From IMG/VR virus record IMGVR_UViG_3300045051_000531: 64,000 nt of DNA; one strand, 5' to 3'. Positions 21,180-39,855 of this stretch are shown here, piece after piece. The translations under genes were made by a program, and so were the position numbers. The notes beneath the pieces are model-generated. The model made no database searches. It was not told where the DNA came from and was given only the letters and a program-made list of their open reading frames with translations. The DNA is from a virus. Numbering within the stretch: position 1 is the first letter of the stretch; each line of letters starts with the position of its first letter.

Positions 21180-21188
21180 GGGGTACCG

Positions 21189-24100
21189 ATGCCGGCCCCG
21201 ATGGACTCCTTCCTGGACCAGGAACCGGTCGAAGCCGTCAAGTTTCGGCGGTTCGATGACGTCGACACGGAGCGCGACGACATCTACGAGAACGCGAAGC
21301 GCGCCTTCAAGCAGCTCCGTCCTGTTCAGAACGCCACGCACCGACTCGAAGTCGCAGATGTCGACTACGATGGTCCCTTCGAGCCGACGAAGGCTGACGA
21401 GAAAAAGGCTATCCTGCAGGGAACCTCGTTGCACCGTCCGTTGCGCGGAACCGTGCGACTCGTCGACATCGCGTCGAATAAGGTCCTCGACGAACAGAAG
21501 GCCACGCTGGCCAGGATTCCGCATCTGACCTCGCGTGGCCTCTTCATCCGGAACGGGGTGACGTGGTCGCTGCGCAACCAGGCCAGGTTGCGTCCTGGCG
21601 TCTACACCCGGCACCGTGCCGATGGCGGTACCGAATCGCACTTCAACATCAAGCCAGGAACCGGTCGTGGGTTCCGTATCTTCCTGGAGCCCGAGAGCGG
21701 TCTGTTCAAGTTCCAGGTCGGGCAATCCACGACGAAGCTGTACCCCGTGTTGCGGCAGCTCGGTGTCGATGATGACGTCATCAAGCAGGCCTGGGGCGAC
21801 GAGCTCCACAAGAAGAACTTCGTTCCGGAGAGCGGCCACGACATCCAGGACATCCGGAAGCTGGTCCACAAGCTGTCCAGCACGAAGGCTGGTGTGGTGC
21901 CCGATGATCTCCTCAAGGATGCCCTCAAGGATGCCCTGGCTCGTGGCGAGGTCGACGAGGACACCACGGAGCTCACCTTGGGTGAACGGTTCCGGAACCT
22001 GAGCCCGGAGCGGCTCCTGCAGGCCACCACCAAGGTGCTCAAGGTTGCCCGTGGTGAGGACCCCGGTGACAACCGTGACTCCCAGGCCTTCCAGTCCATC
22101 CATAGCTCCGAGGACTACATCCGGGAGCGGCTGAGCCGGGATCAGGCCGGGACGCTGCGTAAGCTGCTCTGGAAGGCTGGCCGCACCGGGAAGCTGGGAC
22201 AACTGCAGCCCGGTGTCATGGACCGCAACCTGGGTTCGATCTTCGAAGGCTCCGGTCTCGCGATGTCCGTCGAAGATATCAACCCGTTCGAGATCCACGA
22301 TCAGCGCCAGGCCATCACCAGGCTCGGCGAAGGTGGCATCAGCTCTGAGCAAGCTGTGAGCCGTGACGCCCGTGGCGTCCAGCCCAGCTACATCGGTGTC
22401 ATCGATGCCGGCCGTGGTCCGGAGTCCAGCAAGCTGGGGCTCGATCTGCGCGTCACCGATGCCGCGCTGAAGGGATCAGATGGGCAGCTCTACACCACGG
22501 TAACGAATCGCGATGGGAAGCCTGAAGTTGTGTCCGCGCGGACACTTTCCACGAAGACGGTAGCGTTCCCTGGTGAGATGGAGCGGGACGCCAAGCGGAT
22601 CCCAGCTATTCGTGACGGCGACATCACGTACGTCACCAAGGACGAAGTCGACTACGTCATCCCGAATCCCAACGCGTTGATGTCGCGGGCCACGGCGATG
22701 ATTCCGTTCCCGGAGTCCGTGAAGGGGCAACGGCTTCTCATGGGCGCCCGGATGACTGCTCAGGCGATGCCGCTGCAGGAACCCGAGGCTCCGCTCGTCC
22801 AGACCGCGGACTCCGACGGGGTCAGCCTGCACGAAAAGATGGGAGCCACCATTGGTGCCGTTCGGGCTCCAGCTGCTGGTGTCGTCACCAAGGCGGACGC
22901 CGACGAGATCCAGCTGTCGTTCCCTGACGGGACCAAGAAGACGTTCTCGCTGTACAACAACTACCCGACGGCGCGGAAGACGGTGGTCCACAACACCGCG
23001 CTGGTGAAACGTGGCGACGTCGTCCAGCCCGGGCAGATGCTCGCCAAGTCGAACTTCACCGATGACAAAGGTGTCGCCGCTATCGGTCGGAACCTCCGGG
23101 TCGCCTTCATGGCGGCTGAGGGTGACACCATCGAAGACGCCTTCGTGATCTCGGAGAGCGCTGCGAAGAAGCTGACCTCGGAGGCCCTGTACAAGTCCGA
23201 CCTCGATCTCAGCGAGATCTCGTCGACGAAGAAGGCCGACTATCAGGCTATCTACGCAGATCGCTTCTCTCCGGATCAGTACGCCAAGATCGATGATGAT
23301 GGCGTCATCCAGGTCGGTGCCGAGGTCCGACCTGGGGATCCGTTGATCCTGGGTTACGGCACCAAGGAGAAGCGGGCTGTTGGCGCCCTGATGAATAGCC
23401 CGCGGGCGATGCACAGCGATCGGGCCCAGACCTGGGAGCACCACGCTCCTGGTGTCGTCACCGACGTCGTCAGGACTCGTGGTGGCATCAAGGTCGCCGT
23501 GAAGTCCTACGACGCCATGCGGGCCGCCGACAAGCTGAGCGGTCGGCACGGCAACAAGGGTGTCATCGCAGCGATTCGCCCCGATGAGCAGATGCCCGTG
23601 GACGCCAACGGGGAACCCGTCGAAGTCATCATGAACTCGCTGGGCATCGTGAGCCGCACGAATCCGGCGGCGCTGGCTGAGGCCATGCTCGGCAAGGTGG
23701 CCCAGCGTACCGGGAAGCCTTACGTGGTTCCTGGGTTCAGCGGGAACGATGTCACCGAGTTCGCCCTGCAGGAGGCCCTGAAGAACGGGGTCATCACGCA
23801 GAACGACAAGGGTGAACTCGTCGACACCGAGACGCTCACGGATCCCAGGGATGGTCGCAAGATCCCCGGGGTCTTCACGGGCAACATGTACTTCATGAAG
23901 CTCCAGCACATGGCGGAGTCCAAGCTGGGTGCCCGTGATACCAGTACATACACCACGGAAGGCTTCCCCGCAAAGGGCGGCAAAGAGGGCAGCAAGCGGA
24001 TCGCGATGCTGGACACCCACGCCTTGCTCGCCGCTGGTGCCACGGACTTCATCAAGGACGCCAAGCTGGTCCGCGGTCAGCGGAACGATGATTACTGGCG

Positions 24101-25595
24101 CGCCATCCGTGCTGGCGAGACCCCTATCGTTCCGACAGAGAGCTTCGCCGACGAAAACTTCAAGACGTTGCTCAAGGCGGCTGGGGTCAACGTGCGTGAG
24201 AAGGGGACCAGGAGCCAGCTGGCCCCGCTGCTGGATCGTGACGTCGACGCCTTGGCACAGCACGAGATCGATAACCCGGGCACCTTCGATTTCGAAAGCA
24301 TGGAGCCCATCAAGGGTGGCCTCTTCGATGTCAGCAAGACCGGCGGCGCCGAAGGCAACCGGTTCACCAAGATCACGCTGCCCCAGAAAATCCCACATCC
24401 CTTGTTCGTGGAGCCGATTCAGCGGCTCCTCGGGCTCACGGGTAAAGAGTTCGAGGCGGTTCTCTCGGGCAAAGAGGAGCTCCACGGTAAGACAGGCCCA
24501 GGTGCCGTTGAGGCCGCGCTCTCAGGCATCGACGTGGACCGCGACATCGCGCTCGCCAAGGAACAGATCCGTACTGGCCGTGGGCAGAAGCGCGACGACG
24601 CCGTGAAGCGTCTGAACTATCTCACCGGGTTGAAGAAGACGGAAACCACACCGAGCGATCTCTTGATCAGCAAGATCCCGGTGATCCCGCCGCGGTACCG
24701 CCCCGTGACGAAGAGCCGTGGCACCGACATGGTGCATGATCTCAACTACCTGTACCACGATCTCCTCGAGGCCCGGAACAACTACAGCGACGCCACCAAG
24801 GAGTTCGGTGATGCCGGCGATGAGTACCTCACGATGTGGAACGCGGTTCGGGCGATCAGCGGGGTCCGGGATCCCGTGAACCCGAAGACCGCTGAGCAGG
24901 GCGTCAAAGGGGTCCTCCGGTACGCCATCGGCGTCGGCGACACCCCCAAGGGCGCCTTCTACCAGCGCAAGGTCATCGGTACCGCAGTGGACACCGTTGG
25001 TCGTGGCGTCATCGCGGCGGACAAGGATCTCGACATCGACGAGGTCGGTCTTCCCAAGGACATGGCGGTTAAGATCTTCAGGCCGTACGTGATCCGTCGG
25101 TTGACCAGGATGGGACTCCCGGCAACGGAGGCCATCGAGGCGATCAAGACGGAGACCCCGATGGCGATGAAGGCGCTGGAAGAGGAGATGAAGGCGCGCC
25201 CCGTGGTCTACAACCGGGCCCCGGCGTTGCACCGCTACGCCTACGTGGGCGCCTGGGCCAAGCTGCGTGACGACGACGCCATCGGGATGCCGTACCATAC
25301 CCTGAAGGGTCTTGGCGGCGATTTCGACGGTGACCAGATCAACATCCATGTCCCATCGACTGAGGAAGCCGTTGCCGACGCCACTGATAAGTTGATGCCG
25401 TCCAAGAACCTGTTCTTCACGGGGTCCTTCGAAACCCACCTGGAGCCCGTGCAGGACTACCTCGCCGGACTCTACCTTGCCAGCACCCCGAAGTCCGGAG
25501 AAGCTGTACGGACCTTCGCGAGTGCCGAGGAAGCCAAGGCTGCCTACGCTCGTGGTGAGATCAGCGCCAGAACCCCGATCAGGATACTGACCTAA
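21189..25595 (+). CDS. rpoB/rpoC: DNA-directed RNA polymerase: beta subunit fused to N-terminal half of beta' (both double-psi barrels)
   Basis: beta motifs QRLLMGARMTAQAMPL, GDTIEDAFVISE, DKLSGRHGNKGVI, YFMKLQHMAESKL; beta' motifs IPVIPPRYRP, YNRAPALHR, GGDFDGDQINIHVP. Confidence 0.95.
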   Translation: MPAPMDSFLDQEPVEAVKFRRFDDVDTERDDIYENAKRAFKQLRPVQNATHRLEVADVDYDGPFEPTKADEKKAILQGTSLHRPLRGTVRLVDIASNKVLDEQKATLARIPHLTSRGLFIRNGVTWSLRNQARLRPGVYTRHRADGGTESHFNIKPGTGRGFRIFLEPESGLFKFQVGQSTTKLYPVLRQLGVDDDVIKQAWGDELHKKNFVPESGHDIQDIRKLVHKLSSTKAGVVPDDLLKDALKDALARGEVDEDTTELTLGERFRNLSPERLLQATTKVLKVARGEDPGDNRDSQAFQSIHSSEDYIRERLSRDQAGTLRKLLWKAGRTGKLGQLQPGVMDRNLGSIFEGSGLAMSVEDINPFEIHDQRQAITRLGEGGISSEQAVSRDARGVQPSYIGVIDAGRGPESSKLGLDLRVTDAALKGSDGQLYTTVTNRDGKPEVVSARTLSTKTVAFPGEMERDAKRIPAIRDGDITYVTKDEVDYVIPNPNALMSRATAMIPFPESVKGQRLLMGARMTAQAMPLQEPEAPLVQTADSDGVSLHEKMGATIGAVRAPAAGVVTKADADEIQLSFPDGTKKTFSLYNNYPTARKTVVHNTALVKRGDVVQPGQMLAKSNFTDDKGVAAIGRNLRVAFMAAEGDTIEDAFVISESAAKKLTSEALYKSDLDLSEISSTKKADYQAIYADRFSPDQYAKIDDDGVIQVGAEVRPGDPLILGYGTKEKRAVGALMNSPRAMHSDRAQTWEHHAPGVVTDVVRTRGGIKVAVKSYDAMRAADKLSGRHGNKGVIAAIRPDEQMPVDANGEPVEVIMNSLGIVSRTNPAALAEAMLGKVAQRTGKPYVVPGFSGNDVTEFALQEALKNGVITQNDKGELVDTETLTDPRDGRKIPGVFTGNMYFMKLQHMAESKLGARDTSTYTTEGFPAKGGKEGSKRIAMLDTHALLAAGATDFIKDAKLVRGQRNDDYWRAIRAGETPIVPTESFADENFKTLLKAAGVNVREKGTRSQLAPLLDRDVDALAQHEIDNPGTFDFESMEPIKGGLFDVSKTGGAEGNRFTKITLPQKIPHPLFVEPIQRLLGLTGKEFEAVLSGKEELHGKTGPGAVEAALSGIDVDRDIALAKEQIRTGRGQKRDDAVKRLNYLTGLKKTETTPSDLLISKIPVIPPRYRPVTKSRGTDMVHDLNYLYHDLLEARNNYSDATKEFGDAGDEYLTMWNAVRAISGVRDPVNPKTAEQGVKGVLRYAIGVGDTPKGAFYQRKVIGTAVDTVGRGVIAADKDLDIDEVGLPKDMAVKIFRPYVIRRLTRMGLPATEAIEAIKTETPMAMKALEEEMKARPVVYNRAPALHRYAYVGAWAKLRDDDAIGMPYHTLKGLGGDFDGDQINIHVPSTEEAVADATDKLMPSKNLFFTGSFETHLEPVQDYLAGLYLASTPKSGEAVRTFASAEEAKAAYARGEISARTPIRILT

Positions 25596-26683
25596 TGCTC
25601 GGACATCTTTACATGACCAAGGTGGCCGTCGATTGGACGGACCCAGCTGAGGTCCAGCAGTTCCGGGCCGGGGCCGAGAAGGCGTATTCGGACGCCGTAA
25701 AGTCTAAAGATTTCGCCGGGATCAACGAAGCCCTGAACCGGATCCGGACGTACGAACACAAGACGAAGCAGAAGATGGTTCCGAAGGACGGCTACGACGG
25801 GTTACTGCGCGTCATGCGGATGCTGCACGTCGACGCCGTACGTACGCGCGACGCAACGAAGCTCAGCGCGTTGCAGGATCAGATCGAGTTCCTGGAGTCC
25901 CACACCAACAAGAAGTGGGAGTCCCCCAACGTCAATGCACGCGGCAAGGGTCCATCCGGCGGCACGCTTCCGGATCCCAAGGCGCCGGCTCCGACACCAG
26001 CGCCGAAGCCAGCCGCTCCGGCACCGCCAGCAACGGGTAGCAGCGCCGCCCCGAAAACACCCATGGTTGATTCGGGAAAGTTCAAGGAGCTCAAAGAGCG
26101 GCTCAAGGCCGAGGCCAAGGCTAAGCTGGGCCCAGGCCCAGTCGCCCCAGCGAGTCCGGCTGCGCCGCCCCCGCCTCCTGGTGGCGGAACCGCGGCTAAG
26201 GTCCCGCCAGCACCGGCTCGTGGTGGGGCCGGGGCTCCTCCAGCGCCTCCTGGTGGCGGAACTCCGGCGCCCCGTAGTCGGGCTGCTGCACCGCCGCCGC
26301 CGCCGAAGCCGCCAGTCGCTGCCCCGCTTGGCGGCGGTCCAAAGCCTCCCAGCGGCGGCACAGCTCCGCGTAGTCGACGTGGGTTCGGAGCGCTGATGCG
26401 CGGCGCGCTGCCGTACGCCGGAGCCTTCGCGGCTGGTGGGGCTGCTGGTTACGGGGCCAAGAGTTACCTGGGCCCCACGTCTAAGAGCGACTCTACTGAG
26501 ACCACAGCAGAGAAGCCCGGTATGCTGGACCAGGTCACGAATTACGTCAAAGAGAACCCCTGGACGTCGGCTGGTATCGGGGTCGGAGCCGCAGGAACCA
26601 CAGCCCTGCTGGCTTACCTGCTGAGCCAGGGCAAAAAGCCGGATGAGCGGCCTGACATGGCTGAGGACGTCGTCCTCGCGTAG
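25595..26683 (+). CDS. Pro-rich membrane-anchored putative internal head protein
   Basis: TKVA leader; C-terminal GMLDQVTNYVKENPWTSAGIG anchor homologous to that of 14396-14989. Confidence 0.6.
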   Translation: MLGHLYMTKVAVDWTDPAEVQQFRAGAEKAYSDAVKSKDFAGINEALNRIRTYEHKTKQKMVPKDGYDGLLRVMRMLHVDAVRTRDATKLSALQDQIEFLESHTNKKWESPNVNARGKGPSGGTLPDPKAPAPTPAPKPAAPAPPATGSSAAPKTPMVDSGKFKELKERLKAEAKAKLGPGPVAPASPAAPPPPPGGGTAAKVPPAPARGGAGAPPAPPGGGTPAPRSRAAAPPPPPKPPVAAPLGGGPKPPSGGTAPRSRRGFGALMRGALPYAGAFAAGGAAGYGAKSYLGPTSKSDSTETTAEKPGMLDQVTNYVKENPWTSAGIGVGAAGTTALLAYLLSQGKKPDERPDMAEDVVLA

Positions 26684-26724
26684 CCGCTGTTCACGTAACG
26701 AACGACACATAGGATATCAACACC

Positions 26725-27450
26725 ATGGACAACAAGATCGCCGCTCGCCTGTTCCGCCGCGGGCTTGACGAGAAACTCGCTGAATACCGGAAGTCAGCTT
26801 TCGTCCCGATGGGGACCCCGGCTGAGAAGACCGGCCAGCAGGCCCCTGGCCCTGGTGGGGCCCCCGTGGATCCCGCCGCAGCCGGTGGTGCTCCTATGGA
26901 CCCCATGGCGGCTGGAGCCCCCATGGATCCCATGGCGGCCATGGGTGGCGCCCCTCCCATGGATCCCGCGGCTGGTGGCGCCCCTCCGATGGACCCCATG
27001 GCTGCCATGGGTGGTGCCCCTCCTGCGGACCCCGCAGCCGGTGGCGCCCCGCCCATGGACCCCATGGCCGCGCTCGGTGGCATGCCGCCGCTGCCGGCTG
27101 ATGCCGGCGCCGGTGGCGAGGCCCCGCCTCCGCCACCCCCGCTGGAAGGCGCTGGCGGTGAAGATGGTGGCGGCGGTGGCCTCACCAAGGCTGACGCGGA
27201 GACCGTCGACACGATCACGCGGCGCACTATGGACATCGTTCGGGAGACCCTGGACATGGTCGGGAAGACCAAGCAGCCCAAGGACGGCGGCTCCGCCGCT
27301 GCCCCGGCTGAGCCCGACCCGAAGTCGCAGCCTGGCCCGGTGACTGGTCAGCCCGGCTTCGACCCCAGCATGCTGTCTGGCCCGCTCAAGATGGCTTCGA
27401 CCATCCTGGCTCGCCAGCTCAAGAAGCGCGCAGAAGCGCCCCGGAAGTAA
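26725..27450 (+). CDS. GGAPPMDP-repeat protein
   Basis: MDNKIAA..EKLA..RKSA leader, tandem peptide repeats. Confidence 0.65.
   Translation: MDNKIAARLFRRGLDEKLAEYRKSAFVPMGTPAEKTGQQAPGPGGAPVDPAAAGGAPMDPMAAGAPMDPMAAMGGAPPMDPAAGGAPPMDPMAAMGGAPPADPAAGGAPPMDPMAALGGMPPLPADAGAGGEAPPPPPPLEGAGGEDGGGGGLTKADAETVDTITRRTMDIVRETLDMVGKTKQPKDGGSAAAPAEPDPKSQPGPVTGQPGFDPSMLSGPLKMASTILARQLKKRAEAPRK
26854..27090 (+). repeat. degenerate in-frame tandem repeat encoding GGAPPMDP(M/A)AA
   Basis: repeated ggtggcgcccctcc(c/g)atgga(t/c)ccc units. Confidence 0.8.
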
Positions 27451-27451
27451 G

Positions 27452-29323
27452 ATGCCCAAGCTGGGCCGCCTCGCGTTCCGCAAGGTAGCCGAGGCTGCTG
27501 AGATCCCTCAGCAGCCCGCTGGGCTGTTTGATCGGATGCTGCAGCAGCACGGCGCCGAGCAGGGCCAGGGGCGGTACACTGGTAGCGGTTCCGTGGGTCC
27601 CTCGCAACAGCAGGGCCAGGGGTTCGTCACCGGCCAGCAGGCCTTGTTGGAGGGTGCCCAGTCGGCGGCTGGACCGCTGGGGGTCTCCCTGGCTATGCTG
27701 GGGATGCCGTGGATCCAGCAGGCCACAGCCGGAACCGGCATCGATCTCGCGAAGCCCTGGCAGATGGGGTACGGCGGCAGCCCGAGGGCGTTCCAAGAGC
27801 AGGGTCGTGTCGCGGCCCAGATGATGTCGGCTCAGCTGACCTCCATGGGTGACTCCGGGCGCCAGCTCGCCGTCGCGGCCATCGAGCAGCTCGGCAAGAC
27901 CGGGATCCCGGTTGAGGGAGTCATCAATTACCTGAAGACGGCGGATCCCAACACGGTCGGAACTATCGTACAGCAGCTCTCCCTGCAGTTCCCGCAGGTC
28001 CAGGCGATCATGTCGCGGCTCGACCCGGCGTTCATCAGCGACTTCACGCCGATCGCGCAGGCCACGTACTTCCAGAACAACGGCGATTTCGACGAAGCCC
28101 TGTTCCAGAAGACCATGCAGCGGTTCCAGTCGGATTACCGTTCCGGCAAGTACGGGCAGGTTCCCGCTCAGATCGCGGCGCACTCCGTGGCGTTCGTAGC
28201 TGAGAAGGGCCTCCCGCCTGGTGCCATTCCCGATGCGTCGAAGAACGTGGCTCAGGCCGCGAACTCGCTCGTCGACCGTGGCCTGGCCCCGAGCTTCGGA
28301 GCCGCGATGGAGCTCGCGCAGTCCATCAGCCCGGAGGTCATGCAGAACCCGAAGTCGGTTCAGCAGTTCGCGAACTACACCGATAACCTCGCCAGGCGCG
28401 GCTTCCTGAGCCGGGATCAGATCTACTCGGCGGCCCAGTACGCCATGCATAATGGTCTCGACGTGGCCTCCACGATGACGGCTGTCGGGCATAGCGGGCG
28501 ACTGAAGCGCCTCATGGGGCAGCACGCCGGCAAGCTCCCGGATCTCGCGGCGACATCGCTGGCCGGATTCCAGAAGTCCGAGCAGGCCTCCGTGCTGGGG
28601 GCCGCGCGTCAGATCAGCAAGTCGCTTCGTCACACCATCGATACCGCGATCTCCAAGGGTGACGTCGCTGCGTTGACCAGGGTCTACAAGCAGGTCGCCA
28701 GCAACCCGGACATCCTCAACATTGCTCGGCAGAACCCGAACGTCGGAGTCAGCTTGGCGAAGCAGATGTCGGCGAAGAACCCGGCGATGCTGGGACAGCT
28801 GATGACGGCGCAGTTCGCAGAGCAGGGCAAGAATGATCCCTCGATGCGGAAGTTGCTGCGGAACCCCACCGAGATCAGGCGGCGCATCATCCAGCAGGAT
28901 CTCAGCGGGCTGTCACCTGCAGCGCGCGACTTCATGCTGCGGAACGGTGGCGCCGACGCCGCAGCTGTCCTGGCTTCGAAGTCTCCGGACTACGAAGGTG
29001 CTCCGCTGCCGCCCGGTGTCGACGAGGTCAAGGCGTCGCGCATCGGACTCCAGTACCCGGATGCCCAGTCGGACCGTCCAGCTCCACTGGTGCGCGGTGA
29101 GGCTGAGGTGCCTGAGAACCTGGCCGAACCGGTCCGCACGGGTTCCCGCCCGGCTGCGTTGCCGCGCGGCAACTTCGTACCCGATGGGGTCGAACAGCCG
29201 CCCGGGCTCGGTGAGCTCGCGTTCGGTGATCGTAGCGTGGTTGACCCGAATCGCGGGGTCCGGGCGCCGCCGACGAAGCAGCCCTGGAAGCCGACGAAGC
29301 CTGCCCTGACCCGCGGGATCTAG
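27452..29323 (+). CDS. helical Gln/Ala-rich virion protein (623 aa)
   Basis: MPKLGRLAFRKVAE leader; no Cys seen. Confidence 0.6.
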   Translation: MPKLGRLAFRKVAEAAEIPQQPAGLFDRMLQQHGAEQGQGRYTGSGSVGPSQQQGQGFVTGQQALLEGAQSAAGPLGVSLAMLGMPWIQQATAGTGIDLAKPWQMGYGGSPRAFQEQGRVAAQMMSAQLTSMGDSGRQLAVAAIEQLGKTGIPVEGVINYLKTADPNTVGTIVQQLSLQFPQVQAIMSRLDPAFISDFTPIAQATYFQNNGDFDEALFQKTMQRFQSDYRSGKYGQVPAQIAAHSVAFVAEKGLPPGAIPDASKNVAQAANSLVDRGLAPSFGAAMELAQSISPEVMQNPKSVQQFANYTDNLARRGFLSRDQIYSAAQYAMHNGLDVASTMTAVGHSGRLKRLMGQHAGKLPDLAATSLAGFQKSEQASVLGAARQISKSLRHTIDTAISKGDVAALTRVYKQVASNPDILNIARQNPNVGVSLAKQMSAKNPAMLGQLMTAQFAEQGKNDPSMRKLLRNPTEIRRRIIQQDLSGLSPAARDFMLRNGGADAAAVLASKSPDYEGAPLPPGVDEVKASRIGLQYPDAQSDRPAPLVRGEAEVPENLAEPVRTGSRPAALPRGNFVPDGVEQPPGLGELAFGDRSVVDPNRGVRAPPTKQPWKPTKPALTRGI

Positions 29324-29326
29324 GCC

Positions 29327-29551
29327 ATGCAGGTCATCCTGAACCATCCGAACGGTAAGCAGTACCGGCTCCCGGCCACACAGGTCGTCGTCTACAATGA
29401 CGACGGCCACCCAGTCGCGGTGACCTACGAGCACGGCGGTCTCCTGATCCACTCAGACGCCAGCCACAACGACTTCGACCGTACCCTGTTCTCGCTCAAG
29501 GTAGCCTCGATCGGCCCGATGCCGAAGGCTGAGGAGGCCAGCGGTGGCTGA
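29327..29551 (+). CDS. small protein coupled to beta'(C) gene
   Basis: 74 aa, overlaps start of 29544 by 8 nt. Confidence 0.55.
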   Translation: MQVILNHPNGKQYRLPATQVVVYNDDGHPVAVTYEHGGLLIHSDASHNDFDRTLFSLKVASIGPMPKAEEASGG

Positions 29552-31430
29552 CGTCACCACAGTCGGAACCCTGTTGATCAACGACGCCCTCCCTGAGGAG
29601 CTCCGGAAGGATCAGCACAAGCTCGACAAGAAGGGCGTCCACAAGCTCTTCATGGAGCTCGCTGAGAAATACCCGGACCGCTACAAGGAGGTCCTGAAGT
29701 CGTTGTCTGATGTCGGCAGGACCGCGGTGTGGACCGAAGGGCTCTCTGTGAGCCTGGCTGGGCTGCGGAAGTCGAAGGCCAAGGGGGCCATCCTGGGACC
29801 CGTGATGCAGCGTGTCCGAGCCATCATCGATGACGACACCCTGGATCCCAAGGAGCGCAAAGCCGCCATCATCAACGAGCTCATCCCGATCTCGGGTCCG
29901 CTCCAGGATGCCGTGTTGGAAGAGGCCCGCTCGGAGAACTCGCCGTTCGCCGTTCAGATCGATTCTGGTGCTCGTGGCAACAAGAGTGCCTTTGCGTCGC
30001 TTCGTGGCGCCGACCTGCTCACCACAGATCAGCGTGGTGACCTGATCCCGGTTCCGTTGGAGCACAGCTACGCCGAAGGTTTCACACCTGCGGAGTACTT
30101 CGCGGCGAGCTATGGTCAGCGGAAAGGCCAGCTGAGCGTCAAGCTGGCCACAGCTGACGCCGGGTTCCTGAACAAGCAGCTCGTCAATGCGGCGCACCGT
30201 CAGGTCATCACACGTGAGGTCCCCGAGCCTCGCCGGCTCCTGACCGGGCTTCCTGTCGACATCAACGACAAGGACAACATCGGAGCTGTGCTGGCGACAC
30301 AGATCGGTGATTACCCAGCGGGTACGGTCATCACCGATCGGATCCTTGAAGATCTCAAGGACAAGGATCACGACGAGATCCTGATCCACAGCCCGCTGAC
30401 GGAAATCAGCGAGGACGGCGGCATCAGCGCCTGGGCGGCTGGTCGGAGAACCCGCCAGGGCCTCCACGTCATCGGCGACAACATCGGGATCCCGGCTGCG
30501 CAGGCCATCGGTGAGCGGCTCAGCCAGGGTTCCCTGAACGCGAAGCACAGCGCCGGTGTCGGTGACCGGATCAAGAAGTCCGGTATGGAGTACATCAACC
30601 GGCTCATCCAGGCCCCCGAACACTTCCCCGAGGCTGGTCCCTTGGCGAACGCCGATGGCATCGTCAGCGACATCCGGGTCGCCCCGCAGGGTGGTCACTA
30701 CATCAAGATCGGCGAGGAAGAGCACTACGCCGGTCCCGACCTCGGTGTCACCGTCAAGGTCGGCGACAACGTCGAGCAGGGCGACGACCTCACCGATGGG
30801 GTCCCTCACCCAACCCAGCTCATCCGGCTGCGTGGGATCGGCGAGGCCCGCCGGGTCTATACGTCAGCGCTGCGGGACGCCCTGAACGATTCCGGGGCTC
30901 CGGCGCACCGCCGGAACGTGGAATCCGTGGTGGCTGGTCTGATGAACTGGGCCGAGATCCAGGATCCAGATGGTGTCGGTGACGCGATTTACGGCGACGT
31001 GGTCCCCTATGGGCGCCTCGCGGCGACCTACGAGCCCCGGCCTGATGCCAAGGAAGCCGACCCTGAGAAGCTCGTCGGGAACTACCTCGAAGAGCCCGCC
31101 CTGCACTACACCCCTGGTACCCGGATCACCAAGAAGGTCGCCAAGCGCCTCAAGAAGTGGGGCATCAACGGGGTCCGGGCGCACGTCGATCCCCCGGCCT
31201 TCGAACCGTACATGGTCCGTGGTCTCCACAGCGTTTACCACGACCCTGACTGGAAAGTCCGGCAAGCCGGCTTCTACACGGCCAGGGCCTTCGAGAAGTC
31301 CGTGCACCGCGGACTGGAGTCCGACACACAGTCCACCAGCTTCGTTCCGGCCCTGACGACCCCGAAAGTGCTTGGGCGTTCCCTGGGGACCCTGGGCAAG
31401 TACGGTGGCACCCCAGGCCAGAGCCGGTAA
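29544..31430 (+). CDS. rpoC: RNA polymerase beta' C-terminal subunit (bridge helix, trigger loop)
   Basis: DSGARGN; bridge helix YAEGFTPAEYFAASYGQRKG..ATADAGFLNKQLVNAA; trigger loop IPAAQAIGERLSQGSLNAKHSAG. Confidence 0.92.
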   Translation: MADVTTVGTLLINDALPEELRKDQHKLDKKGVHKLFMELAEKYPDRYKEVLKSLSDVGRTAVWTEGLSVSLAGLRKSKAKGAILGPVMQRVRAIIDDDTLDPKERKAAIINELIPISGPLQDAVLEEARSENSPFAVQIDSGARGNKSAFASLRGADLLTTDQRGDLIPVPLEHSYAEGFTPAEYFAASYGQRKGQLSVKLATADAGFLNKQLVNAAHRQVITREVPEPRRLLTGLPVDINDKDNIGAVLATQIGDYPAGTVITDRILEDLKDKDHDEILIHSPLTEISEDGGISAWAAGRRTRQGLHVIGDNIGIPAAQAIGERLSQGSLNAKHSAGVGDRIKKSGMEYINRLIQAPEHFPEAGPLANADGIVSDIRVAPQGGHYIKIGEEEHYAGPDLGVTVKVGDNVEQGDDLTDGVPHPTQLIRLRGIGEARRVYTSALRDALNDSGAPAHRRNVESVVAGLMNWAEIQDPDGVGDAIYGDVVPYGRLAATYEPRPDAKEADPEKLVGNYLEEPALHYTPGTRITKKVAKRLKKWGINGVRAHVDPPAFEPYMVRGLHSVYHDPDWKVRQAGFYTARAFEKSVHRGLESDTQSTSFVPALTTPKVLGRSLGTLGKYGGTPGQSR

Positions 31431-31457: not shown

Positions 31458-33755
31458 ATGCCTGCACCCAATGAGACCGCACTGGAGAAGACGTTCTCGG
31501 ACCTGGCTTACAGCCATCTCCGCGACAAGAGCCAGGCGCTGCTGGACTACCTCGTCGGCTTCCAGCTCCTCAAGCAGGAGAACGATGGCCAGCGTGCCGT
31601 CGGCATCTTCGGCTTCGAGATCGACGAGGACTACTACTACGCCCCGATCTTCTTCCTGAACGGCGAGATTCGCGGCCTGGACTGCCTGTACTCGGTGAAG
31701 TCAGACATCTTCATGCCGCTGACCGATGACTGGGTCAACACGGTCATCAACCGTCGCCAGCTCTCCCTGGGCGAGAAGGACACCAGGTCCCGCGCCGAGC
31801 GCGGCACCCGTGTCCCGAACTACAGCCGGCTCAAGATCATCCCGGGCGGTGGCGGTGGCACCTCGCTGAAGCTGGGATCCGCTCAGCTCCAGAAGCTGAG
31901 CTCCGCCATGATGGGCGAGAACGCCGATCTGGCCGCGGTCCGCAAGATCGATCTGACCCACGAGATCGCTGCTGTCGGCGCCGGCCCGTTCTTCAAGGCT
32001 GCCATGGACCGGAACCCCCGGTTCCGCGCCGCCTTCGAAGACTTCGGCTACAACTACCTGGATCTCGCTGGGGCCCCAGTTCAGCAGGAGAAGGTCGCCG
32101 CTGAGGACGCCGTTGTCCTGATCAACTCGGTCACCGACGAAGGCGTCGACGAGCTCACCGACGAGCAGCGCACCACGGTTCTCGAAGGCGGCACTGCCGT
32201 CATCGACAATCGTCCCGAGGTCGCCAAGGCGATCCTGTACCGAAAGGAAGTCGAGCGCGAGCTCGAGAACCCGACTACGGGCGCCCTCTACGATGTCCTG
32301 TGGTCAGACGGTGCCGTGGCCCCAGCCCTGGTCTGCCCGATCGCCAATGGCGAAAACGAGGTCTTCGTCTTCCGTCCCAACGATGGCGACAAGTACTGCA
32401 GCATCGATCGCCGCAAGGTCTTCGTGACCCGGATGTACAGCGCCAACGAGCTCAACGACTGGCTCAAGAAGAACACCAAGGAAGCCTCGGCCATCAAGCC
32501 GCAGGAAGTCGTCGTCTTCATCGGTTGCGAGGGCGACGCTACCGCAGCGTTCTGCATCTCCGATGTTCGCACCGGGATCGATGGCATCACGGTGGCCACC
32601 GTGAATGATCGGCACCACATGGACGCCGGGAACAACTGCAGCAGCGCTCCGTGCATCAGCAGTGGCTACGCTCGCGGCAACAACGGCGACCCGGAGCCGA
32701 ATCAGTACAACAACCTGCCGATCGATGGGATGTGTGATCGGGGAACCCGTCAGCGCGATCCCACGGTCTTCACCAAGGAAGTCATCATCACCGAGGCCGG
32801 TGGTCGCTCGCCTCGGTTCTCCAAGACGCAGGTCATCGTCAACGACAAGCACTTCTACGCTCTGAAGGTGAACACCTTCAAGCTGGTCTCGACCAGCGAG
32901 CTCTACGAGGGCGAAGTCGAGAAGTACGGTGAGCCCAGGAAGGACGCCCAGCTCAAAGAGTCCGACTTCGGCTGCTACTCCACGGTCTACGAGGCCCTCG
33001 ACAAGGTCGCGGCTGAGTTGAAGACTTGGAAGACGGGTCGCGATCTCACCGTGAAGACCGCGGGTCTCCTGGAGACCGTGGCTTCGGAGCGCGACGCCCT
33101 GGCTGTTCTGATGCAGAAGCTCGGGATGTCGGAGACCGATGCGCGCGTCGTCATCGCTGAGGCTGGTCCAACGGTTCAGTACTACAAGCTGAGCCCGACC
33201 ACCAAGGCCGCGGCTGCCATGCTGGATCTCCCTGAGATCAGGGACACCGATCTCGGTGGTTTCATGAACAGCTACCACCAGTCCCAGGTGCCCTACGCGA
33301 CCACGAACAAGCGGGCCCCCGAGGACAACCGCGAGTTCTACCGGTACTACAGCCCGTTCGCGGGCGGCGCCCCGGACAGCGAGGGCGGCAATGATGGCGG
33401 CGAGGACACCTTCGGGATCGTCGACGAAGCCGCCAAGACGGGTGAGAAGGAAGTCTTCGATGCCGCCGCGTTGGGTTCCCTGATCAAGGCCCACAACCCG
33501 ACGGATCTCGTGGATCGCTTCCTGCCCACGATCACCTCAGGCATGGATCGCATCGGCCGCATGCTGTTCCTGATCTACTGGCACTACGAGGACTTCGAGG
33601 AGCGCTACGGCGAGGACGAGCTCAGCGAGTTCATGGACAACCTGCGCACCGTCTTCGAGCAGCTCGGCGACATCGTGATCTTCGCCAAGAAGCGCACCCT
33701 GGCTGGGGACCCCGAACACTACGGTCTCGGGGCCGCCCCGAACATGGAGGGCTGA
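31458..33755 (+). CDS. prohead core-type protein (765 aa)
   Basis: strongly GC3-biased ORF between RNAP and head genes; KVAA, KTAG, KAAA motifs. Confidence 0.55.
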   Translation: MPAPNETALEKTFSDLAYSHLRDKSQALLDYLVGFQLLKQENDGQRAVGIFGFEIDEDYYYAPIFFLNGEIRGLDCLYSVKSDIFMPLTDDWVNTVINRRQLSLGEKDTRSRAERGTRVPNYSRLKIIPGGGGGTSLKLGSAQLQKLSSAMMGENADLAAVRKIDLTHEIAAVGAGPFFKAAMDRNPRFRAAFEDFGYNYLDLAGAPVQQEKVAAEDAVVLINSVTDEGVDELTDEQRTTVLEGGTAVIDNRPEVAKAILYRKEVERELENPTTGALYDVLWSDGAVAPALVCPIANGENEVFVFRPNDGDKYCSIDRRKVFVTRMYSANELNDWLKKNTKEASAIKPQEVVVFIGCEGDATAAFCISDVRTGIDGITVATVNDRHHMDAGNNCSSAPCISSGYARGNNGDPEPNQYNNLPIDGMCDRGTRQRDPTVFTKEVIITEAGGRSPRFSKTQVIVNDKHFYALKVNTFKLVSTSELYEGEVEKYGEPRKDAQLKESDFGCYSTVYEALDKVAAELKTWKTGRDLTVKTAGLLETVASERDALAVLMQKLGMSETDARVVIAEAGPTVQYYKLSPTTKAAAAMLDLPEIRDTDLGGFMNSYHQSQVPYATTNKRAPEDNREFYRYYSPFAGGAPDSEGGNDGGEDTFGIVDEAAKTGEKEVFDAAALGSLIKAHNPTDLVDRFLPTITSGMDRIGRMLFLIYWHYEDFEERYGEDELSEFMDNLRTVFEQLGDIVIFAKKRTLAGDPEHYGLGAAPNMEG

Positions 33756-37394: not shown

Positions 37395-38572
37395 GTTTCG
37401 CCAAGCAGGCCTCGGAAATCGTCACGGATCGTGTCGCGTGTCTCCTGTTGGCCAAGGAGGCCGAGGCTGTCGTCATCGATCCGGATCGTGAGCTCCAGGA
37501 CGAAGCCACTGAGGACGAGGTCCGGAAGTCGAAGCGGAACCGACTGCTCTGGGCCCTCGGCGGACTCGCGGCGCTTGGTGGCGGCGGGTACCTGGCCCAT
37601 CGTACCGGGATGCTGGACGCGATCGGTGATAAGTTCAGGTCCAAAAATCCTGACACCCAACCAGGCGTGCTCCAGCGCGGTGCTGAGGCCGTATCGCAGG
37701 TCCCAGCTACCGCGTCGCTCGCACTGGGTGCTCTGAACGCATCGCGTGGTTCGCGTCGGATCTCCGAGTTCCTGCCCACAGGCCCGCGGGCACTGCGTCG
37801 GCATGCCCCAGGCAACCCGGCGGACTCCCTGCACGGTACCCTCGGAATGGCCGATCAGCTGCGCGAGGATGTACAGCGGACTCCAACGACCGGTGCTGGT
37901 GATGGGATCTGGTCGACCGTGAGCGGAAACCGTGAGCGGGCCGAATTGCGTGACCGTATGCATAGGATTTTCGAGGGCCTCCCGAAGGGCACGAACCAGG
38001 CGCAGCTCGCCGATCGATTCACGCAGATGTTCGATCGTCAGGGAGCCGCTCCAACTGGGCTTCAGGAAGTCCTGTGGAATCGTGCACGGGCCACGCCCGG
38101 CCCCGGTTCGATGACGCTAGACGATATCGACAAACTCGAGCGCACCGTCGCTGATACCACGCGAGGCGGCCGGTTCGGACGTCTCTTCGCGAATCGTCAC
38201 GTCGATCAAACCGCGCTCAGGCTTCTCGAAGAAGGCCTGCAGAACGACATCGCTGCAGCGAAAGCTGGCGATGCCACCGCGAAGGCGCGCATCGAACGCG
38301 TCGCACGCGAGGACATGGGCTTCGACCCGAAGATGCGAGCAAAGGGAGACCCAGCTATCAGTGAGGCTGACGCGGCTGAAAAGCTGCGCGGCACGCTGCG
38401 GCAGTTCCGTACGCTGCCGACACGCCCTGGTCGTAGTGTTGCGGGTGTACTGCGCCGCGGGCTTCTCCCGCTCGCGATTACACATGGTGTCGCCCCTGTG
38501 ACCGCTGGTGCGCTGCGCTGGTCCGGGCTCGACGCACAACCAGCTCCGAAACCGGAAGAGCAGAAACCGTGA
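37391..38572 (+). CDS. membrane-anchored putative internal head protein
   Basis: MSFAKQAS..AKEAE leader; LLWALGGLAALGGGGYLA TM. Confidence 0.6.
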   Translation: MSFAKQASEIVTDRVACLLLAKEAEAVVIDPDRELQDEATEDEVRKSKRNRLLWALGGLAALGGGGYLAHRTGMLDAIGDKFRSKNPDTQPGVLQRGAEAVSQVPATASLALGALNASRGSRRISEFLPTGPRALRRHAPGNPADSLHGTLGMADQLREDVQRTPTTGAGDGIWSTVSGNRERAELRDRMHRIFEGLPKGTNQAQLADRFTQMFDRQGAAPTGLQEVLWNRARATPGPGSMTLDDIDKLERTVADTTRGGRFGRLFANRHVDQTALRLLEEGLQNDIAAAKAGDATAKARIERVAREDMGFDPKMRAKGDPAISEADAAEKLRGTLRQFRTLPTRPGRSVAGVLRRGLLPLAITHGVAPVTAGALRWSGLDAQPAPKPEEQKP

Positions 38573-39855
38573 TTCCCAAGCTGATCTCGTCGCAGTCGTT
38601 CAACTTCGATGCCCCCGTGGCGTCGCTGGTTCCGCTGCACGGAAATCACGTCGGGCTCACCAAGCACGCCAATCACGGCGTCTTCACGAAGTACCTCAAG
38701 GACTTCAAGGCGCCGCCCAACAAGACCGTGATCCACGTCCTCGCCGTTGGCGACGAAGAGATGTACGGCCCGAACCGCAATGGCGACGGGTTCAGCCGCG
38801 AAGACAATAGAACCGCACATCGTTCTTTCGTCGACATCGGGCACGTCTTCAAGAACCATCAGAACGATGATCCGTTCAAGTCAGTTGGGGATGTCGTTCA
38901 GAGCGGGCATCACGATCTGATGTCGCGCATCGAGCTGCTTCTCGGGCTCGACAACGATAAGTGCCGTCGCGAGATTCAGGCCCTGCACGAGGGCAAGGAC
39001 ATCCCAGTCAGCATGGGATCCATGCAGGACTACGATGTCTGCAGCATCTGCGGGCACCAGGCTCCAACTGCGGCTGACCACTGTTTCCACATCACAGACC
39101 TGCTCGGCCAGATCCTCTCGGATGGCCGCCGGGTCTACATGAAGAACCCGAAGCCGAAGTACTTCGACATCAGCATCGTGTTCAAGCCAGCGGATCGCAT
39201 CGCATACGCGCTGCGCAAGGTAGCCGAGGCGCACGGTCGCGTCATCGGTGGCCACGAACTCGCCGAGCTCGTCGGTATGGGTTCCTGGGCGAACCCGAAG
39301 TTCGCCACGCTGAAGGCGCTGGCTGCGTTCGCGAAGCGGGTCCCTGCCAAGCTGACTGCAGCGGCTCCGAAGAAGCTGACGACGGCTTCCGTCAAGGAGC
39401 TCAGGAAGATCGCTGAACTTCACGGCATCGAGCAGCTCATCGGGTTCCTGAACGCGAACGGCTGGCTCCTCGGCCCCAGCGACTTCGGCGAGGTCATCGG
39501 CCACCCGAACCCGGCTGGCTGCGAGGCCGCTGCCAACGAGTTCGGCAGTCTGGACGCACTTCTCGACGATCACACCCAGGTCGCCGCTCTGGAGCCACCC
39601 GGCGCCCAGGAGTCCCTGAAGATCAGCCCGGACACCGTGTCTGATCTCCGCCGCCAGACCTCCATGGACCCCGGCGCCACCCAGGCCCGCGTCATCCAGA
39701 TCACGATCCAGCAGCCGGTTAGCAAGACCGCGGCGATCATGGATCCCACCGAGGCCCAGGGCTTCGCGCTGCTCTACGGACACTACAAAGTCGCCTTCGC
39801 CCACGTCCACTACGGTCGTCAGGATGTCCTGAGGACCGTGGCGGTCACCTTCTAG
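38569..39855 (+). CDS. prohead maturation protease (probable) with Zn-finger
   Basis: GPNRNGDGF, HVFKNH, IPVSMGS (Ser nucleophile candidate), CSICGH..DHC; directly upstream of scaffold and MCP. Confidence 0.65.
   Translation: MIPKLISSQSFNFDAPVASLVPLHGNHVGLTKHANHGVFTKYLKDFKAPPNKTVIHVLAVGDEEMYGPNRNGDGFSREDNRTAHRSFVDIGHVFKNHQNDDPFKSVGDVVQSGHHDLMSRIELLLGLDNDKCRREIQALHEGKDIPVSMGSMQDYDVCSICGHQAPTAADHCFHITDLLGQILSDGRRVYMKNPKPKYFDISIVFKPADRIAYALRKVAEAHGRVIGGHELAELVGMGSWANPKFATLKALAAFAKRVPAKLTAAAPKKLTTASVKELRKIAELHGIEQLIGFLNANGWLLGPSDFGEVIGHPNPAGCEAAANEFGSLDALLDDHTQVAALEPPGAQESLKISPDTVSDLRRQTSMDPGATQARVIQITIQQPVSKTAAIMDPTEAQGFALLYGHYKVAFAHVHYGRQDVLRTVAVTF

What the first reader, a model, noticed from the sequence alone, without database searches (positions are those of the whole stretch)
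21189..31430. Two-chain multisubunit RNAP: beta fused to beta'-N, with beta'-C on a separate gene 4 kb away
Seen: beta ends (LLKAAGVNVRE, about 24170-24200) and runs in frame into beta' (SQLAPLLDRDV..) through the catalytic loop. The bridge helix and trigger loop are in 29544-31430. No alpha or omega gene is recognisable in the window. Established: the beta' break point resembles the cyanobacterial RpoC1/RpoC2 split; full beta-beta' fusions occur in Helicobacter and Wolbachia; phiKZ/AR9 split both subunits; metagenomic tailed phages with deep-branching beta/beta' have been reported. Inference: the fusion puts both catalytic barrels on one chain and may remove the need for alpha.
Basis: partly seen in the sequence, partly recalled or inferred. 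Interest (0 to 1): 0.85.

Follow-up and report, generated by a model that had tools for sequence, protein, structure and literature searches.

The report
Fused-and-split phage RNA polymerase
An uncultured ~191-kb soil phage encodes a bacterial-type RNA polymerase as two proteins (all of beta joined to the front of beta-prime, and the back of beta-prime on its own); hundreds of phages share this layout, including cultured Salmonella phage Arash, and it seems to have arisen by splitting a single-chain beta-beta-prime enzyme that many other large phages still carry.

Summary
Window 21189-25595 is one 1468-aa ORF holding a complete beta followed, without a linker, by beta-prime up to about 70 residues past the GGDFDGD catalytic loop. 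Window 29544-31430 (628 aa) holds the rest of beta-prime, including the bridge helix and trigger loop.

It is not an assembly artefact. The layout recurs in Salmonella phage Arash (gp206 + gp216), in Vibrio phages D69/D181/D148, in 210 IMG/VR loci and in over 100 metagenomic protein clusters.

- Related large phages carry a fully fused single chain of about 2000-2150 aa. On a tree rooted with bacterial enzymes the split forms nest inside these, so the split is derived.
- The break is a clean cut just before the TTVG motif. It lies about 40-70 residues upstream of the cyanobacterial RpoC1/RpoC2 break, so it is not the same site.
- All phage forms lack the N-terminal zinc ribbon. The window's clade also lost the second zinc site and has no cysteine.
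- No alpha or omega gene was found in seven related phage genomes or contigs. A conserved sigma-70-family gene is present.
- Two small genes are conserved between the two chains.

Virion packaging is likely but indirect. Other agents of this scan found the same layout on other DNA. I found no paper that describes it.

The parts
21189..25595 (+). Gene for the beta::beta-prime-N chain (1468 aa). Beta is residues 1 to ~1003 (nt 21189-24197); beta-prime-N is residues ~1004-1468 (nt 24198-25592) and holds the clamp helices and the GGDFDGD catalytic loop. No cysteine.
   Evidence: An AAGGGG Shine-Dalgarno-like site lies 6 nt before the ATG at 21189. The public gene call starts at 21201.
24170..24330 (+). 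Beta/beta-prime junction. The beta C-terminus (...LLKAAGVNVRE) runs straight into the beta-prime N-terminus. The zinc ribbon that follows in cellular beta-prime (about 66 residues) is absent.
   Evidence: residues 1025-1046 = B. subtilis beta-prime 26-47; residue 1076 = beta-prime 143. (the same compact junction and the missing four Cys columns in all 42 phage rows).
25595..26683 (+). 362-aa cysteine-free protein with an A/P/G-rich low-complexity middle and a C-terminal glycine-zipper membrane segment (DUF883_C). It is an extra gene of this lineage and is not part of the usual spacer.
26725..27450 (+). 241-aa A/P/G/M-rich repeat protein. It is the conserved first gene of the spacer between the two polymerase chains in most relatives.
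   Evidence: 45% identity to the L004 homolog; homologous ~210-260-aa gene in the ~1-kb spacers of IMG/VR loci.
27452..29323 (+). 623-aa cysteine-free A/G/Q-rich protein with no family match. It is a lineage-specific extra gene in the spacer.
29327..29551 (+). 74-aa conserved small protein (five strands plus one helix). Its stop overlaps the beta-prime-C start by 8 nt. It is a candidate accessory or assembly factor.
   Evidence: family found in 63 loci; AF2 pLDDT 88; no structural relative; best Z 2.3.
29544..31430 (+). Gene for the beta-prime-C chain (628 aa): TTVG motif at the N-terminus, then the bridge helix, trigger loop and C-terminal clamp part. The four ligands of the second zinc site are replaced and there is no cysteine.
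   Evidence: A GAGGAGG site lies 6 nt before the GTG at 29544.
31458..33755 (+). 765-aa conserved downstream neighbour, homologous to Arash gp218 (found in the virion proteome) and present in 52 of 80 IMG/VR loci. It is in the same frame as beta-prime-C, after one TAA and 27 nt. Function unknown.
   Evidence: moderate AF2 model, no PDB relative.
62851..63621 (+). Sigma-70-family factor (regions 2-4, SigB/F/G/FliA-like), cysteine-free. It is the homolog of Arash gp10 and of the sigma gene next to the single-chain polymerase in L025. The listed ORF starts at the TTG at 62749; the ATG at 62851 fits the gene packing.
12455..14326 (+). Portal homolog (context). It places the polymerase genes inside the head-morphogenesis block.
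   Evidence: 24% identity over ~460 aa to the Arash gp204 portal and its D69 homolog, E 1e-49 to 1e-52.
38569..39855 (+). Head-maturation-protease-like gene (context); the other side of the head block.
   Evidence: phrog_18299, E 7.7e-9; 36% identity to the D69 homolog.

Best explanation
The two genes encode the catalytic core of the phage's own bacterial-type RNA polymerase.

- Chain 1 is a complete, minimal beta joined head-to-tail to beta-prime through the Mg-binding double-psi barrel.
- Chain 2 is the rest of beta-prime, cut cleanly in a surface loop just before the TTVG motif.
- Origin (inferred from a tree): this is a secondary split of a single-chain beta-beta-prime polymerase of about 2000-2150 aa that related large phages still encode.
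- Promoter specificity (inferred): the core most likely works with the phage's own sigma-70-family factor (62851-63621).
- Other subunits (absence of genes shown; independence from them inferred): it works without phage-encoded alpha or omega and without zinc.
- Timing and delivery (inferred): in this subclade the genes sit in the head-morphogenesis block. The enzyme is probably made late, packaged in the capsid and delivered with the DNA to start early transcription.
- Candidate partners: the conserved ~240-aa A/P/G-rich protein and ~75-aa protein encoded between the chains are candidate assembly, packaging or accessory partners. Their role is unknown.
For: Identity and completeness:
- Pfam, PHROG and PDB alignments cover beta 42-1045, beta-prime 26-554 and beta-prime ~590 to the end.
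- The catalytic GGDFDGD, beta GRHGNKG, PPRYRP, the clamp-helix motif, the bridge helix and the trigger-loop His can all be read directly.

Conservation:
- One-piece matches in Arash and Vibrio D69.
- The top 120 metagenomic hits are all fused.
- 34 loci in MAG contigs.
- 210 IMG/VR loci; in 61 of the 80 kept, beta-prime-C lies downstream on the same strand, 0.9-7.4 kb away, median 1.0 kb.

Split derived from a full fusion:
- L025 and P0278-P0391 are single chains holding Rpb2_6 + Rpb1_2 + Rpb1_5.
- In a 52-row tree the bacteria separate at 100* and the basal phage branches are all full fusions. Every split form lies in one 100* clade.
- The AU test rejects 'full fusions form one clade' (p 0.0059). 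It does not reject a single origin of the split (p 0.145).
- Basal full forms read straight through the break point.

No alpha or omega:
- None at E<=1 in the complete Arash and D69 genomes.
- None on five further 131-199-kb phage contigs.
- Arash and D69 each hold only one Rpb2_6.

Sigma:
-. Homologs are Arash gp10 and a gene immediately downstream of the single-chain polymerase in L025.

Packaging:
- In Arash virion mass spectrometry gp206 was the most detected protein (3516 spectra, 100% coverage), gp216 gave 1210 spectra and sigma gp10 had 100% coverage (PMC10585845).
- The window genes lie between the portal and the prohead protease in a gap-free co-directional block.
Against: - There are no expression, proteome or activity data for this phage, and no RNA run was listed.
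- The Arash virion list also holds primase, helicases and ribonucleotide reductases. Its authors allow carry-over of abundant proteins, so packaging is not proven.
- The two full-fusion relatives whose neighbourhoods I saw lie among replication and nucleotide-metabolism genes, not head genes. Packaging may therefore not be general.
- The tree is a quick LG+G4 search on a fast MAFFT alignment. Many rows were flagged for unusual composition, only 10 bacterial rows were used, and the root is assumed.
- Seven full forms sit inside the split clade, so either a re-fusion occurred or the branch order there is unresolved.
- Host alpha or omega could still be recruited.
- The sigma could instead serve the host core enzyme.
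Confidence: 0.75

Rival explanations
1. The polymerase is not carried in the virion. Host RNA polymerase transcribes the early genes, including these, and the phage enzyme takes over middle and late transcription, as in T7-like logic.
For: Full-fusion relatives sit in non-structural neighbourhoods. The Arash virion list includes obvious non-structural enzymes. No promoter or terminator signal above chance was found around the genes.
Against: The genes are embedded between portal and prohead protease in the window, Arash and D69. gp206 tops the spectral counts in Arash, and sigma and gp216 were also detected. There is only one polymerase set per genome.
Confidence: 0.22
2. The two chains are not the whole core. 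Host alpha2 and/or omega, or the conserved interposed proteins, are obligatory subunits, so 'two-chain, alpha-free' is wrong.
For: Only the absence of phage genes was shown. A ~240-aa and a ~75-aa gene are conserved between the chains, and the small gene overlaps the beta-prime-C start.
Against: phiKZ/AR9 phage polymerases work without alpha or omega (PMC7598289). The ~240-aa protein is low-complexity and the ~75-aa protein has no omega-like or alpha-like fold. A virion enzyme would have to act before it meets host subunits.
Confidence: 0.2
3. The phage sigma redirects the host core enzyme, as T4 gp55 or SPO1 gp28 do, and the phage polymerase recognises promoters by another means.
For: Sigma lies about 31 kb from the polymerase genes in the window. 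Many large phages without a polymerase encode sigma factors (PMC7824862).
Against: The sigma homolog is directly adjacent to the single-chain polymerase in L025. A sigma-like gene is near P0287. Sigma is conserved in Arash and D69 and detected in Arash virions together with the polymerase. The beta-prime clamp-helix motif, the main sigma dock, is retained.
Confidence: 0.15
4. The two parts are rejoined into one chain or one message: the 4-kb spacer is an intron, or the ends carry a split intein.
For: Mobile elements are frequent in this gene family. There is a group I intron plus homing endonuclease in Vibrio phage D181 and inteins at eight or more sites in homologs.
Against: Rfam finds nothing in 25400-29700 at E<=0.1. 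The spacer holds four ORFs with their own ribosome-binding sites, two of them conserved as genes. P0001 aligns to beta-prime up to its last 3 residues and P0002 from residue 5, which leaves no room for intein halves.
Confidence: 0.02
5. The fusion is an assembly or frameshift artefact, or a decaying pseudogene.
For: The window comes from a metagenome contig, and the two full-length holders may be the same data set.
Against: Hundreds of independent contigs and four cultured phage genomes keep the same open frame across the junction at 25-75% identity. Junction residues are highly conserved.
Confidence: 0.01

Closest known systems
Salmonella phage Arash gp206 + gp216 with sigma gp10 (OQ632216; PMC10585845); Vibrio phages D69, D181, D148
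   Same: Same architecture: a ~1525-aa beta::beta-prime-N, a ~606-aa beta-prime-C downstream on the same strand, a sigma homolog, a portal nearby, no alpha or omega, and a single polymerase set. Both chains and sigma were detected in Arash virions.
   Different: Only ~27-31% identity to the window. Arash and D69 keep the four Cys of the second zinc site, whereas the window has none. The spacer content differs: 0.6 kb in D69, 4.8 kb with opposite-strand genes in Arash. The small 74-aa gene is not recognisable there. The paper labels the two proteins beta and beta-prime and mentions neither the fusion nor the split.
Single-chain beta-beta-prime polymerases (~2000-2150 aa) of uncultured large phages
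   Same: Same compact beta/beta-prime junction, same loss of the N-terminal zinc ribbon, same minimal size, and sigma genes nearby. They form one group with the split forms against bacteria.
   Different: Beta-prime is uninterrupted. Most keep the second zinc site. The two neighbourhoods I saw are replication or nucleotide-metabolism blocks, not head genes.
Helicobacter / Wolbachia rpoB-rpoC fusions (established knowledge, not tested here)
   Same: The beta C-terminus is joined in frame to the beta-prime N-terminus. This follows the universal rpoB-rpoC gene order, seen in the cellular loci.
   Different: The cellular fusions are full-size (~2900 aa), keep the zinc sites, work with alpha2 and omega, and are not split again.
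Cyanobacterial / plastid RpoC1 (gamma) + RpoC2 split
   Same: Beta-prime is divided after the catalytic barrel and before the bridge helix.
   Different: The position differs. Gamma runs ~65-73 residues beyond the end of P0001 and includes the TTVG motif with which P0002 begins. Beta is separate in cyanobacteria.
phiKZ / AR9 virion and non-virion multisubunit polymerases (PMC7598289)
   Same: Phage-encoded, alpha- and omega-less, beta-prime split after the barrel, and one set packaged in the virion.
   Different: Those enzymes split beta as well (4-5 chains), have no sigma homolog, come as two sets per genome and are far more diverged. Here there is one set, beta is fused rather than split, and a sigma is present.
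mReC: multi-subunit-RNAP-encoding Caudovirales (Weinheimer & Aylward 2020, PMC7481178)
   Same: Metagenomic tailed phages, some over 200 kb, with beta and beta-prime homologs that branch apart from cellular ones. They were drawn partly from IMG/VR, which holds 210 loci of this family.
   Different: The paper describes neither a fusion nor a split of these subunits. I could not test whether its 97 contigs overlap this family.

Membership tests
Bacterial-type multisubunit RNA polymerase (beta/beta-prime core) | Beta-prime double-psi barrel with the DxDGD magnesium-binding loop | tested here: met
   GGDFDGD at P0001 ~1376-1382 lies within Rpb1_2 and aligns to NADFDGD of solved enzymes. The three Asp are invariant in the 21-sequence alignment.
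Bacterial-type multisubunit RNA polymerase (beta/beta-prime core) | Beta barrel and active-site region (Rpb2_6, GNKG lysines) | tested here: met
   Rpb2_6 E 3.5e-51; GRHGNKG present; near full-length alignment to beta.
Bacterial-type multisubunit RNA polymerase (beta/beta-prime core) | Bridge helix and trigger loop | tested here: met
   P0002 residues ~190-230 and ~320-345 align to the bridge helix and trigger loop of M. tuberculosis beta-prime, and the trigger-loop His is kept.
Bacterial-type multisubunit RNA polymerase (beta/beta-prime core) | Alpha dimer and omega subunit encoded or used | tested here: not met
   No PF01000, PF01193 or PF01192 match in window ORFs, in the complete Arash and D69 genomes, or on five related phage contigs. 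Use of host subunits cannot be tested here.
Bacterial-type multisubunit RNA polymerase (beta/beta-prime core) | Two beta-prime zinc sites | tested here: not met
   The zinc-ribbon columns are gaps in all 42 phage rows. The second site (CCCC) is kept in most phage forms but replaced in the window clade. There are 0 Cys in 2096 residues.
Bacterial-type multisubunit RNA polymerase (beta/beta-prime core) | Sigma-70-family initiation factor | tested here: inconclusive
   A sigma gene is present and conserved, and the clamp-helix motif is kept. Binding to this core is not shown.
Arash-like fused/split phage polymerase | Beta and beta-prime-N in one ORF; beta-prime-C a separate downstream gene on the same strand | tested here: met
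Arash-like fused/split phage polymerase | Groups with Arash/D69 in a tree, apart from cellular enzymes | tested here: met
   A 100* clade of 22 rows holds the window, Arash, D69 and all other split forms.
Cyanobacterial-type beta-prime split | Break at the RpoC1/RpoC2 position | tested here: not met
   P0001 ends at gamma ~559 of 624. P0002 starts at the TTVG motif, which is still inside gamma.
phiKZ/AR9-type phage polymerase | Beta split into two or three chains; two polymerase sets; no sigma | tested here: not met
   Beta is intact and fused. Arash and D69 have one Rpb2_6 each. Sigma is present.
Helicobacter-type complete rpoBC fusion | The whole of beta and the whole of beta-prime in one chain | tested here: not met
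   The chain stops 70 residues after the catalytic loop, and the rest is a separate gene 3.95 kb away. Related phages do meet this feature.

The most novel reading that the evidence does not exclude
The window's clade carries a new minimal holoenzyme that is packaged in the capsid and injected. It would consist of two chains totalling 2096 residues, with no zinc, no cysteine and no alpha or omega, and would be directed by a phage sigma. The split of an ancestral single-chain polymerase and the move into the head-gene block would be adaptations to packaging or ejection. The two conserved interposed proteins (~240-aa A/P/G-rich and ~75-aa) would be new polymerase-associated factors that replace the assembly role of alpha and omega or tether the enzyme inside the head.
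Probability: 0.3. Interest if true: 0.8.

Novelty: new variant of a known kind. Interest (0 to 1): 0.62.

Why it matters
If the reading holds, this would be the smallest natural bacterial-type RNA polymerase core that still has a sigma partner. It has about 2100 residues against about 2750 for E. coli beta plus beta-prime, no zinc sites, and no alpha or omega gene in the phage.

That bears on what the assembly platform and the zinc domains are for. It also offers a compact sigma-dependent enzyme for structural and synthetic work.

The family shows subunit boundaries being redrawn in both directions (fusion, then split, possibly re-fusion), with introns and inteins active in the same genes. That is a natural experiment on how split and fused polymerase genes arise.

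Salmonella phage Arash and the Vibrio phages are in culture, so the questions can be tested directly.

Tried and rejected
- **Whole genome:** none is held for the window. Loci from the look-up of encoding contigs cannot be searched as records, so alpha and omega were checked in relatives only.
- **IMG/VR with the single protein:** found nothing; the alignment query worked.
- **Intron or ribozyme in the spacer:** no Rfam hit in the window at gathering score, nor in 25400-29700 at E<=0.1.
- **Split intein:** rejected, because both ends align to beta-prime to within 3-5 residues.
- **Small ORFs before beta-prime-C in Arash and D69:** no similarity to the window's 74-aa protein.
- **74-aa protein:** good AF2 model (pLDDT 88) but no structural relative (Foldseek best E 0.23; VIA best Z 2.3). 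The ESM Atlas gave no lead.
- **765-aa neighbour:** moderate model (pLDDT 68), no PDB match at E<=0.001, and no Atlas lead.
- **Families for the spacer and neighbouring proteins:** Pfam, PHROGs and NCBIfam gave nothing beyond DUF883_C.
- **241-aa protein as a hidden alpha:** rejected; it is low-complexity repeat sequence.
- **Promoter and terminator scan of 17000-36500:** counts are at shuffle level.
- **tRNAs:** none.
- **L012 as an unfused relative:** rejected. Its in-frame TAG lies inside conserved beta sequence, not at the junction, and there is no clear sign of stop-codon recoding.
- **Beta-prime-C tails versus the 765-aa protein:** no similarity.
- **RNA evidence:** no RNA holder was listed.
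- **Alignment and tree:** MAFFT --auto timed out, so a faster mode was used. A careful mixture-model tree was not feasible in the time allowed.
- **Literature:** searches for a description of phage beta-beta-prime fusions with sigma found none.

Full report
**What is there.** The window is 62-69% G+C, and nearly all long ORFs lie on the + strand. ORF 21189-25595 encodes 1468 residues with Pfam Rpb2_6 (563-922, E 3.5e-51), Rpb1_1 and Rpb1_2 in one frame. ORF 29544-31430 encodes 628 residues with Rpb1_5. PHROGs gives the same picture. The first protein covers a beta family and positions 163-539 of a 1216-position beta-prime family; the second covers positions 615-1096 of that family.

Against solved structures:
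- Residues 45-996 of the first protein align to nearly the whole of a 1100-aa beta.
- Residues 1076-1465 align to beta-prime 143-538.
- Residues 5-475 of the second protein align to M. tuberculosis beta-prime 666-1170.

Motifs that can be read directly are GRHGNKG (beta), PPRYRP, the clamp-helix motif, GGDFDGD, the bridge helix and the trigger-loop His.

**The junction and the break.**
- Beta ends at about residue 1003. Residues 1025-1046 align to beta-prime 26-47, so the two subunits are joined head to tail without a linker.
- About 66 residues that hold the N-terminal zinc ribbon in cellular beta-prime are absent.
- The first chain ends at E. coli beta-prime ~554, which is position ~559 of the 624-residue cyanobacterial gamma. 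The second chain begins at the TTVG motif, M. tuberculosis 666.
- In many bacteria only 9-18 residues separate these two points, so the cut is clean and lies in a loop.
- Cyanobacterial gamma runs ~65-73 residues further and contains the TTVG motif. The break is therefore near the RpoC1/RpoC2 site but not at it.
- Both genes have good ribosome-binding sites.
- Nothing in the 3.95-kb spacer looks like an intron, and there is no room for split-intein halves.

**Not an artefact, and widespread.**
- The contig is a 191,422-bp assembly from a rhizosphere metagenome run. Two run assemblies hold the 10.6-kb stretch without any difference at depth ~40, though they may be one data set.
- Salmonella phage Arash (gp206, 1525 aa; gp216, 606 aa) and Vibrio phages D69, D181 and D148 have the same layout at 27-31% identity.
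- The best 120 metagenomic proteins (42-75% identity, contigs up to 221 kb) all combine Rpb2_6 with Rpb1_2.
- MAG contigs binned to many phyla carry the layout.
- IMG/VR has 210 loci. In 61 of the 80 kept, beta-prime-C lies downstream on the same strand, 0.9-7.4 kb away with a median of 1.0 kb.
- The junction region is among the best conserved parts of a 21-sequence alignment.

**A larger family of complete fusions.** One MAG-binned contig (L025) has a single 2028-aa ORF with beta, beta-prime-N and beta-prime-C, and a sigma homolog immediately downstream. A search with that protein found many single chains of about 2000-2150 aa carrying Rpb2_6, Rpb1_2 and Rpb1_5, on phage-like contigs up to 217 kb.

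I built a tree from 15 split forms (8 with both chains concatenated), 27 full fusions and 10 bacterial beta + beta-prime pairs taken from MAG genomes.
- Bacteria separate from all phage forms (SH-aLRT 100).
- Rooted on bacteria, the basal phage lineages are all full fusions.
- Every split form lies in one fully supported clade of 22 rows, which also holds seven full forms.
- An AU test rejects the full fusions forming one clade (p 0.0059).
- It does not reject a single origin of the split (p 0.145).
- The alignment shows the same compact beta/beta-prime junction in all phage forms, and basal full forms read straight through the break point. The L025 group lacks ~40-60 residues there, which would fit a secondary re-fusion.

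The window's layout is therefore best read as a split of an ancestral single-chain enzyme. Caveats: a fast alignment, a quick LG+G4 search, compositional heterogeneity, few bacterial rows and an assumed root.

**Zinc and cysteine.**
- Both chains have no cysteine, against 0.43% for the window's ORFs.
- The ORF just upstream (20286-21179), the four spacer ORFs and sigma have none either.
- 70 of 78 intein-free homologs have none.
- The tree alignment refines this. All phage forms lack the zinc ribbon, and most, including Arash, D69 and nearly all full fusions, have exactly four Cys, the ligands of the second zinc site. The window's clade has replaced these too.

Cysteine poverty is thus a trait of the whole phage family, not only of forms encoded in head-gene blocks. 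This tempers another first-stage note of this scan, which reads it as a hallmark of an injected enzyme.

**Partners.**
- No alpha or omega family matches the window's ORFs, the complete Arash and D69 genomes, or five further 131-199-kb phage contigs. The MAGs' own alpha and omega lie on other contigs.
- Arash and D69 have a single polymerase set.
- A sigma-70-family gene (62851-63621; regions 2-4) is present. Its homologs are Arash gp10, a D69 gene and the gene next to the L025 polymerase.
- The usual ~1-kb spacer between the chains holds two conserved genes. One is a ~210-260-aa A/P/G-rich protein (window 26725-27450). The other is a ~70-90-aa protein (window 29327-29551) found in 63 loci, whose stop overlaps the beta-prime-C start.
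- The small protein folds confidently into five strands and a helix and has no recognisable structural relative.
- The window carries two extra spacer genes (25595-26683 and 27452-29323), both cysteine-free and low in complexity.
- A ~750-aa gene follows beta-prime-C in 52 of 80 loci and is homologous to Arash gp218. Its model found no relative.

**How it probably works.**

Shown:
- The two genes encode a complete, conserved beta/beta-prime catalytic core with intact active-site elements.
- No alpha or omega gene was found in the relatives searched.
- A conserved sigma gene is present.

Inferred:
- The core assembles from two chains and uses the phage sigma.
- It is packaged and injected for early transcription.

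The packaging inference rests on three things: the position between the portal (12455-14326) and the prohead protease (38569-39855) in a gap-free block; the same placement in Arash and D69; and Arash virion mass spectrometry, where gp206 gave the most spectra and gp216 and sigma gp10 were also found. That list also contains non-structural enzymes, so the evidence is suggestive only.

**Literature and novelty.**
- The Arash paper names the proteins beta and beta-prime and mentions neither the fusion nor the split.
- The mReC paper, the jumbo-phage polymerase review and the jumbo-phage comparative study do not describe such forms.
- Other searches found nothing.
- Other agents of this scan reported the same layout on other genomes and reached similar verdicts.

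I rate it a new variant of a known kind. Its interest is moderate to high because cultured representatives make it testable.

Noticed in passing
Homologs P0008-P0121 (positions given in P0001 numbering) and P0127-P0276 (P0002 numbering): Inteins sit at eight or more different sites of the fusion protein in relatives (about 362, 413, 523, 650, 784, 824, 935, and 1382 inside the DFDGD loop). Two or three more sit in beta-prime-C (about 197-210 and 331-333). These make proteins of 1600-2500 aa. The window's genes have none.
   Followed up: partly
L052 (Vibrio phage D181) 4931-5842: A group I intron (RF00028, 100.7 bits, E 1.4e-26) followed by a homing-endonuclease gene interrupts the fusion gene in D181 and D148. 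The records annotate the pieces as separate hypothetical proteins.
   Followed up: yes
P0145-P0276 (beta-prime-C relatives at 40-45% identity): 91 of the best 150 cluster representatives carry a 350-1150-aa cysteine-poor (0-2 Cys per intein-free protein) G/A/P/Q-rich tail after the beta-prime-C part. Some tails hold DUF5661-like or NUDIX-like modules that the window encodes as separate genes (4674-5396, 6982-8520). A shared C-terminal motif (FATPxEIW) has no match in the window.
   Followed up: partly
window 20286-31430: Seven consecutive ORFs (3693 residues, including both polymerase chains) contain no cysteine, although about 20 would be expected from the rest of the window. Several are A/P/G/Q-rich with glycine-zipper segments.
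   Followed up: partly
window 31428-31460; L004 18981-19013: Beta-prime-C and the ~750-aa downstream gene are in the same frame, separated by one stop (TAA in the window) and 27 nt, both in the window and in L004. I did not test whether this means anything, such as readthrough.
   Followed up: no
L012 10815-10817: An in-frame TAG lies inside conserved beta sequence of a gut-MAG phage contig. It could be a sequencing error, a nonsense mutation or a suppressed stop. ORF statistics gave no clear sign of recoding.
   Followed up: partly
P0080-P0095, P0114 (P0001 positions ~211-246): A variable 250-470-aa insertion in the beta lobe region of some relatives. In single cases it carries GNAT acetyltransferase (P0087) or SET-domain (P0095) Pfam matches.
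   Followed up: no
window 43674-45578: A 634-aa protein with N-terminal TPR repeats and a family-41 glycosyltransferase domain (O-GlcNAc-transferase-like; E 1.8e-43). It is cysteine-rich compared with its neighbours.
   Followed up: no
L008-L027 (genome contigs): Phage contigs with this polymerase are binned into MAGs labelled as many unrelated phyla, and each MAG also has its own normal rpoB on another contig. Host labels from these bins are therefore unreliable.
   Followed up: partly
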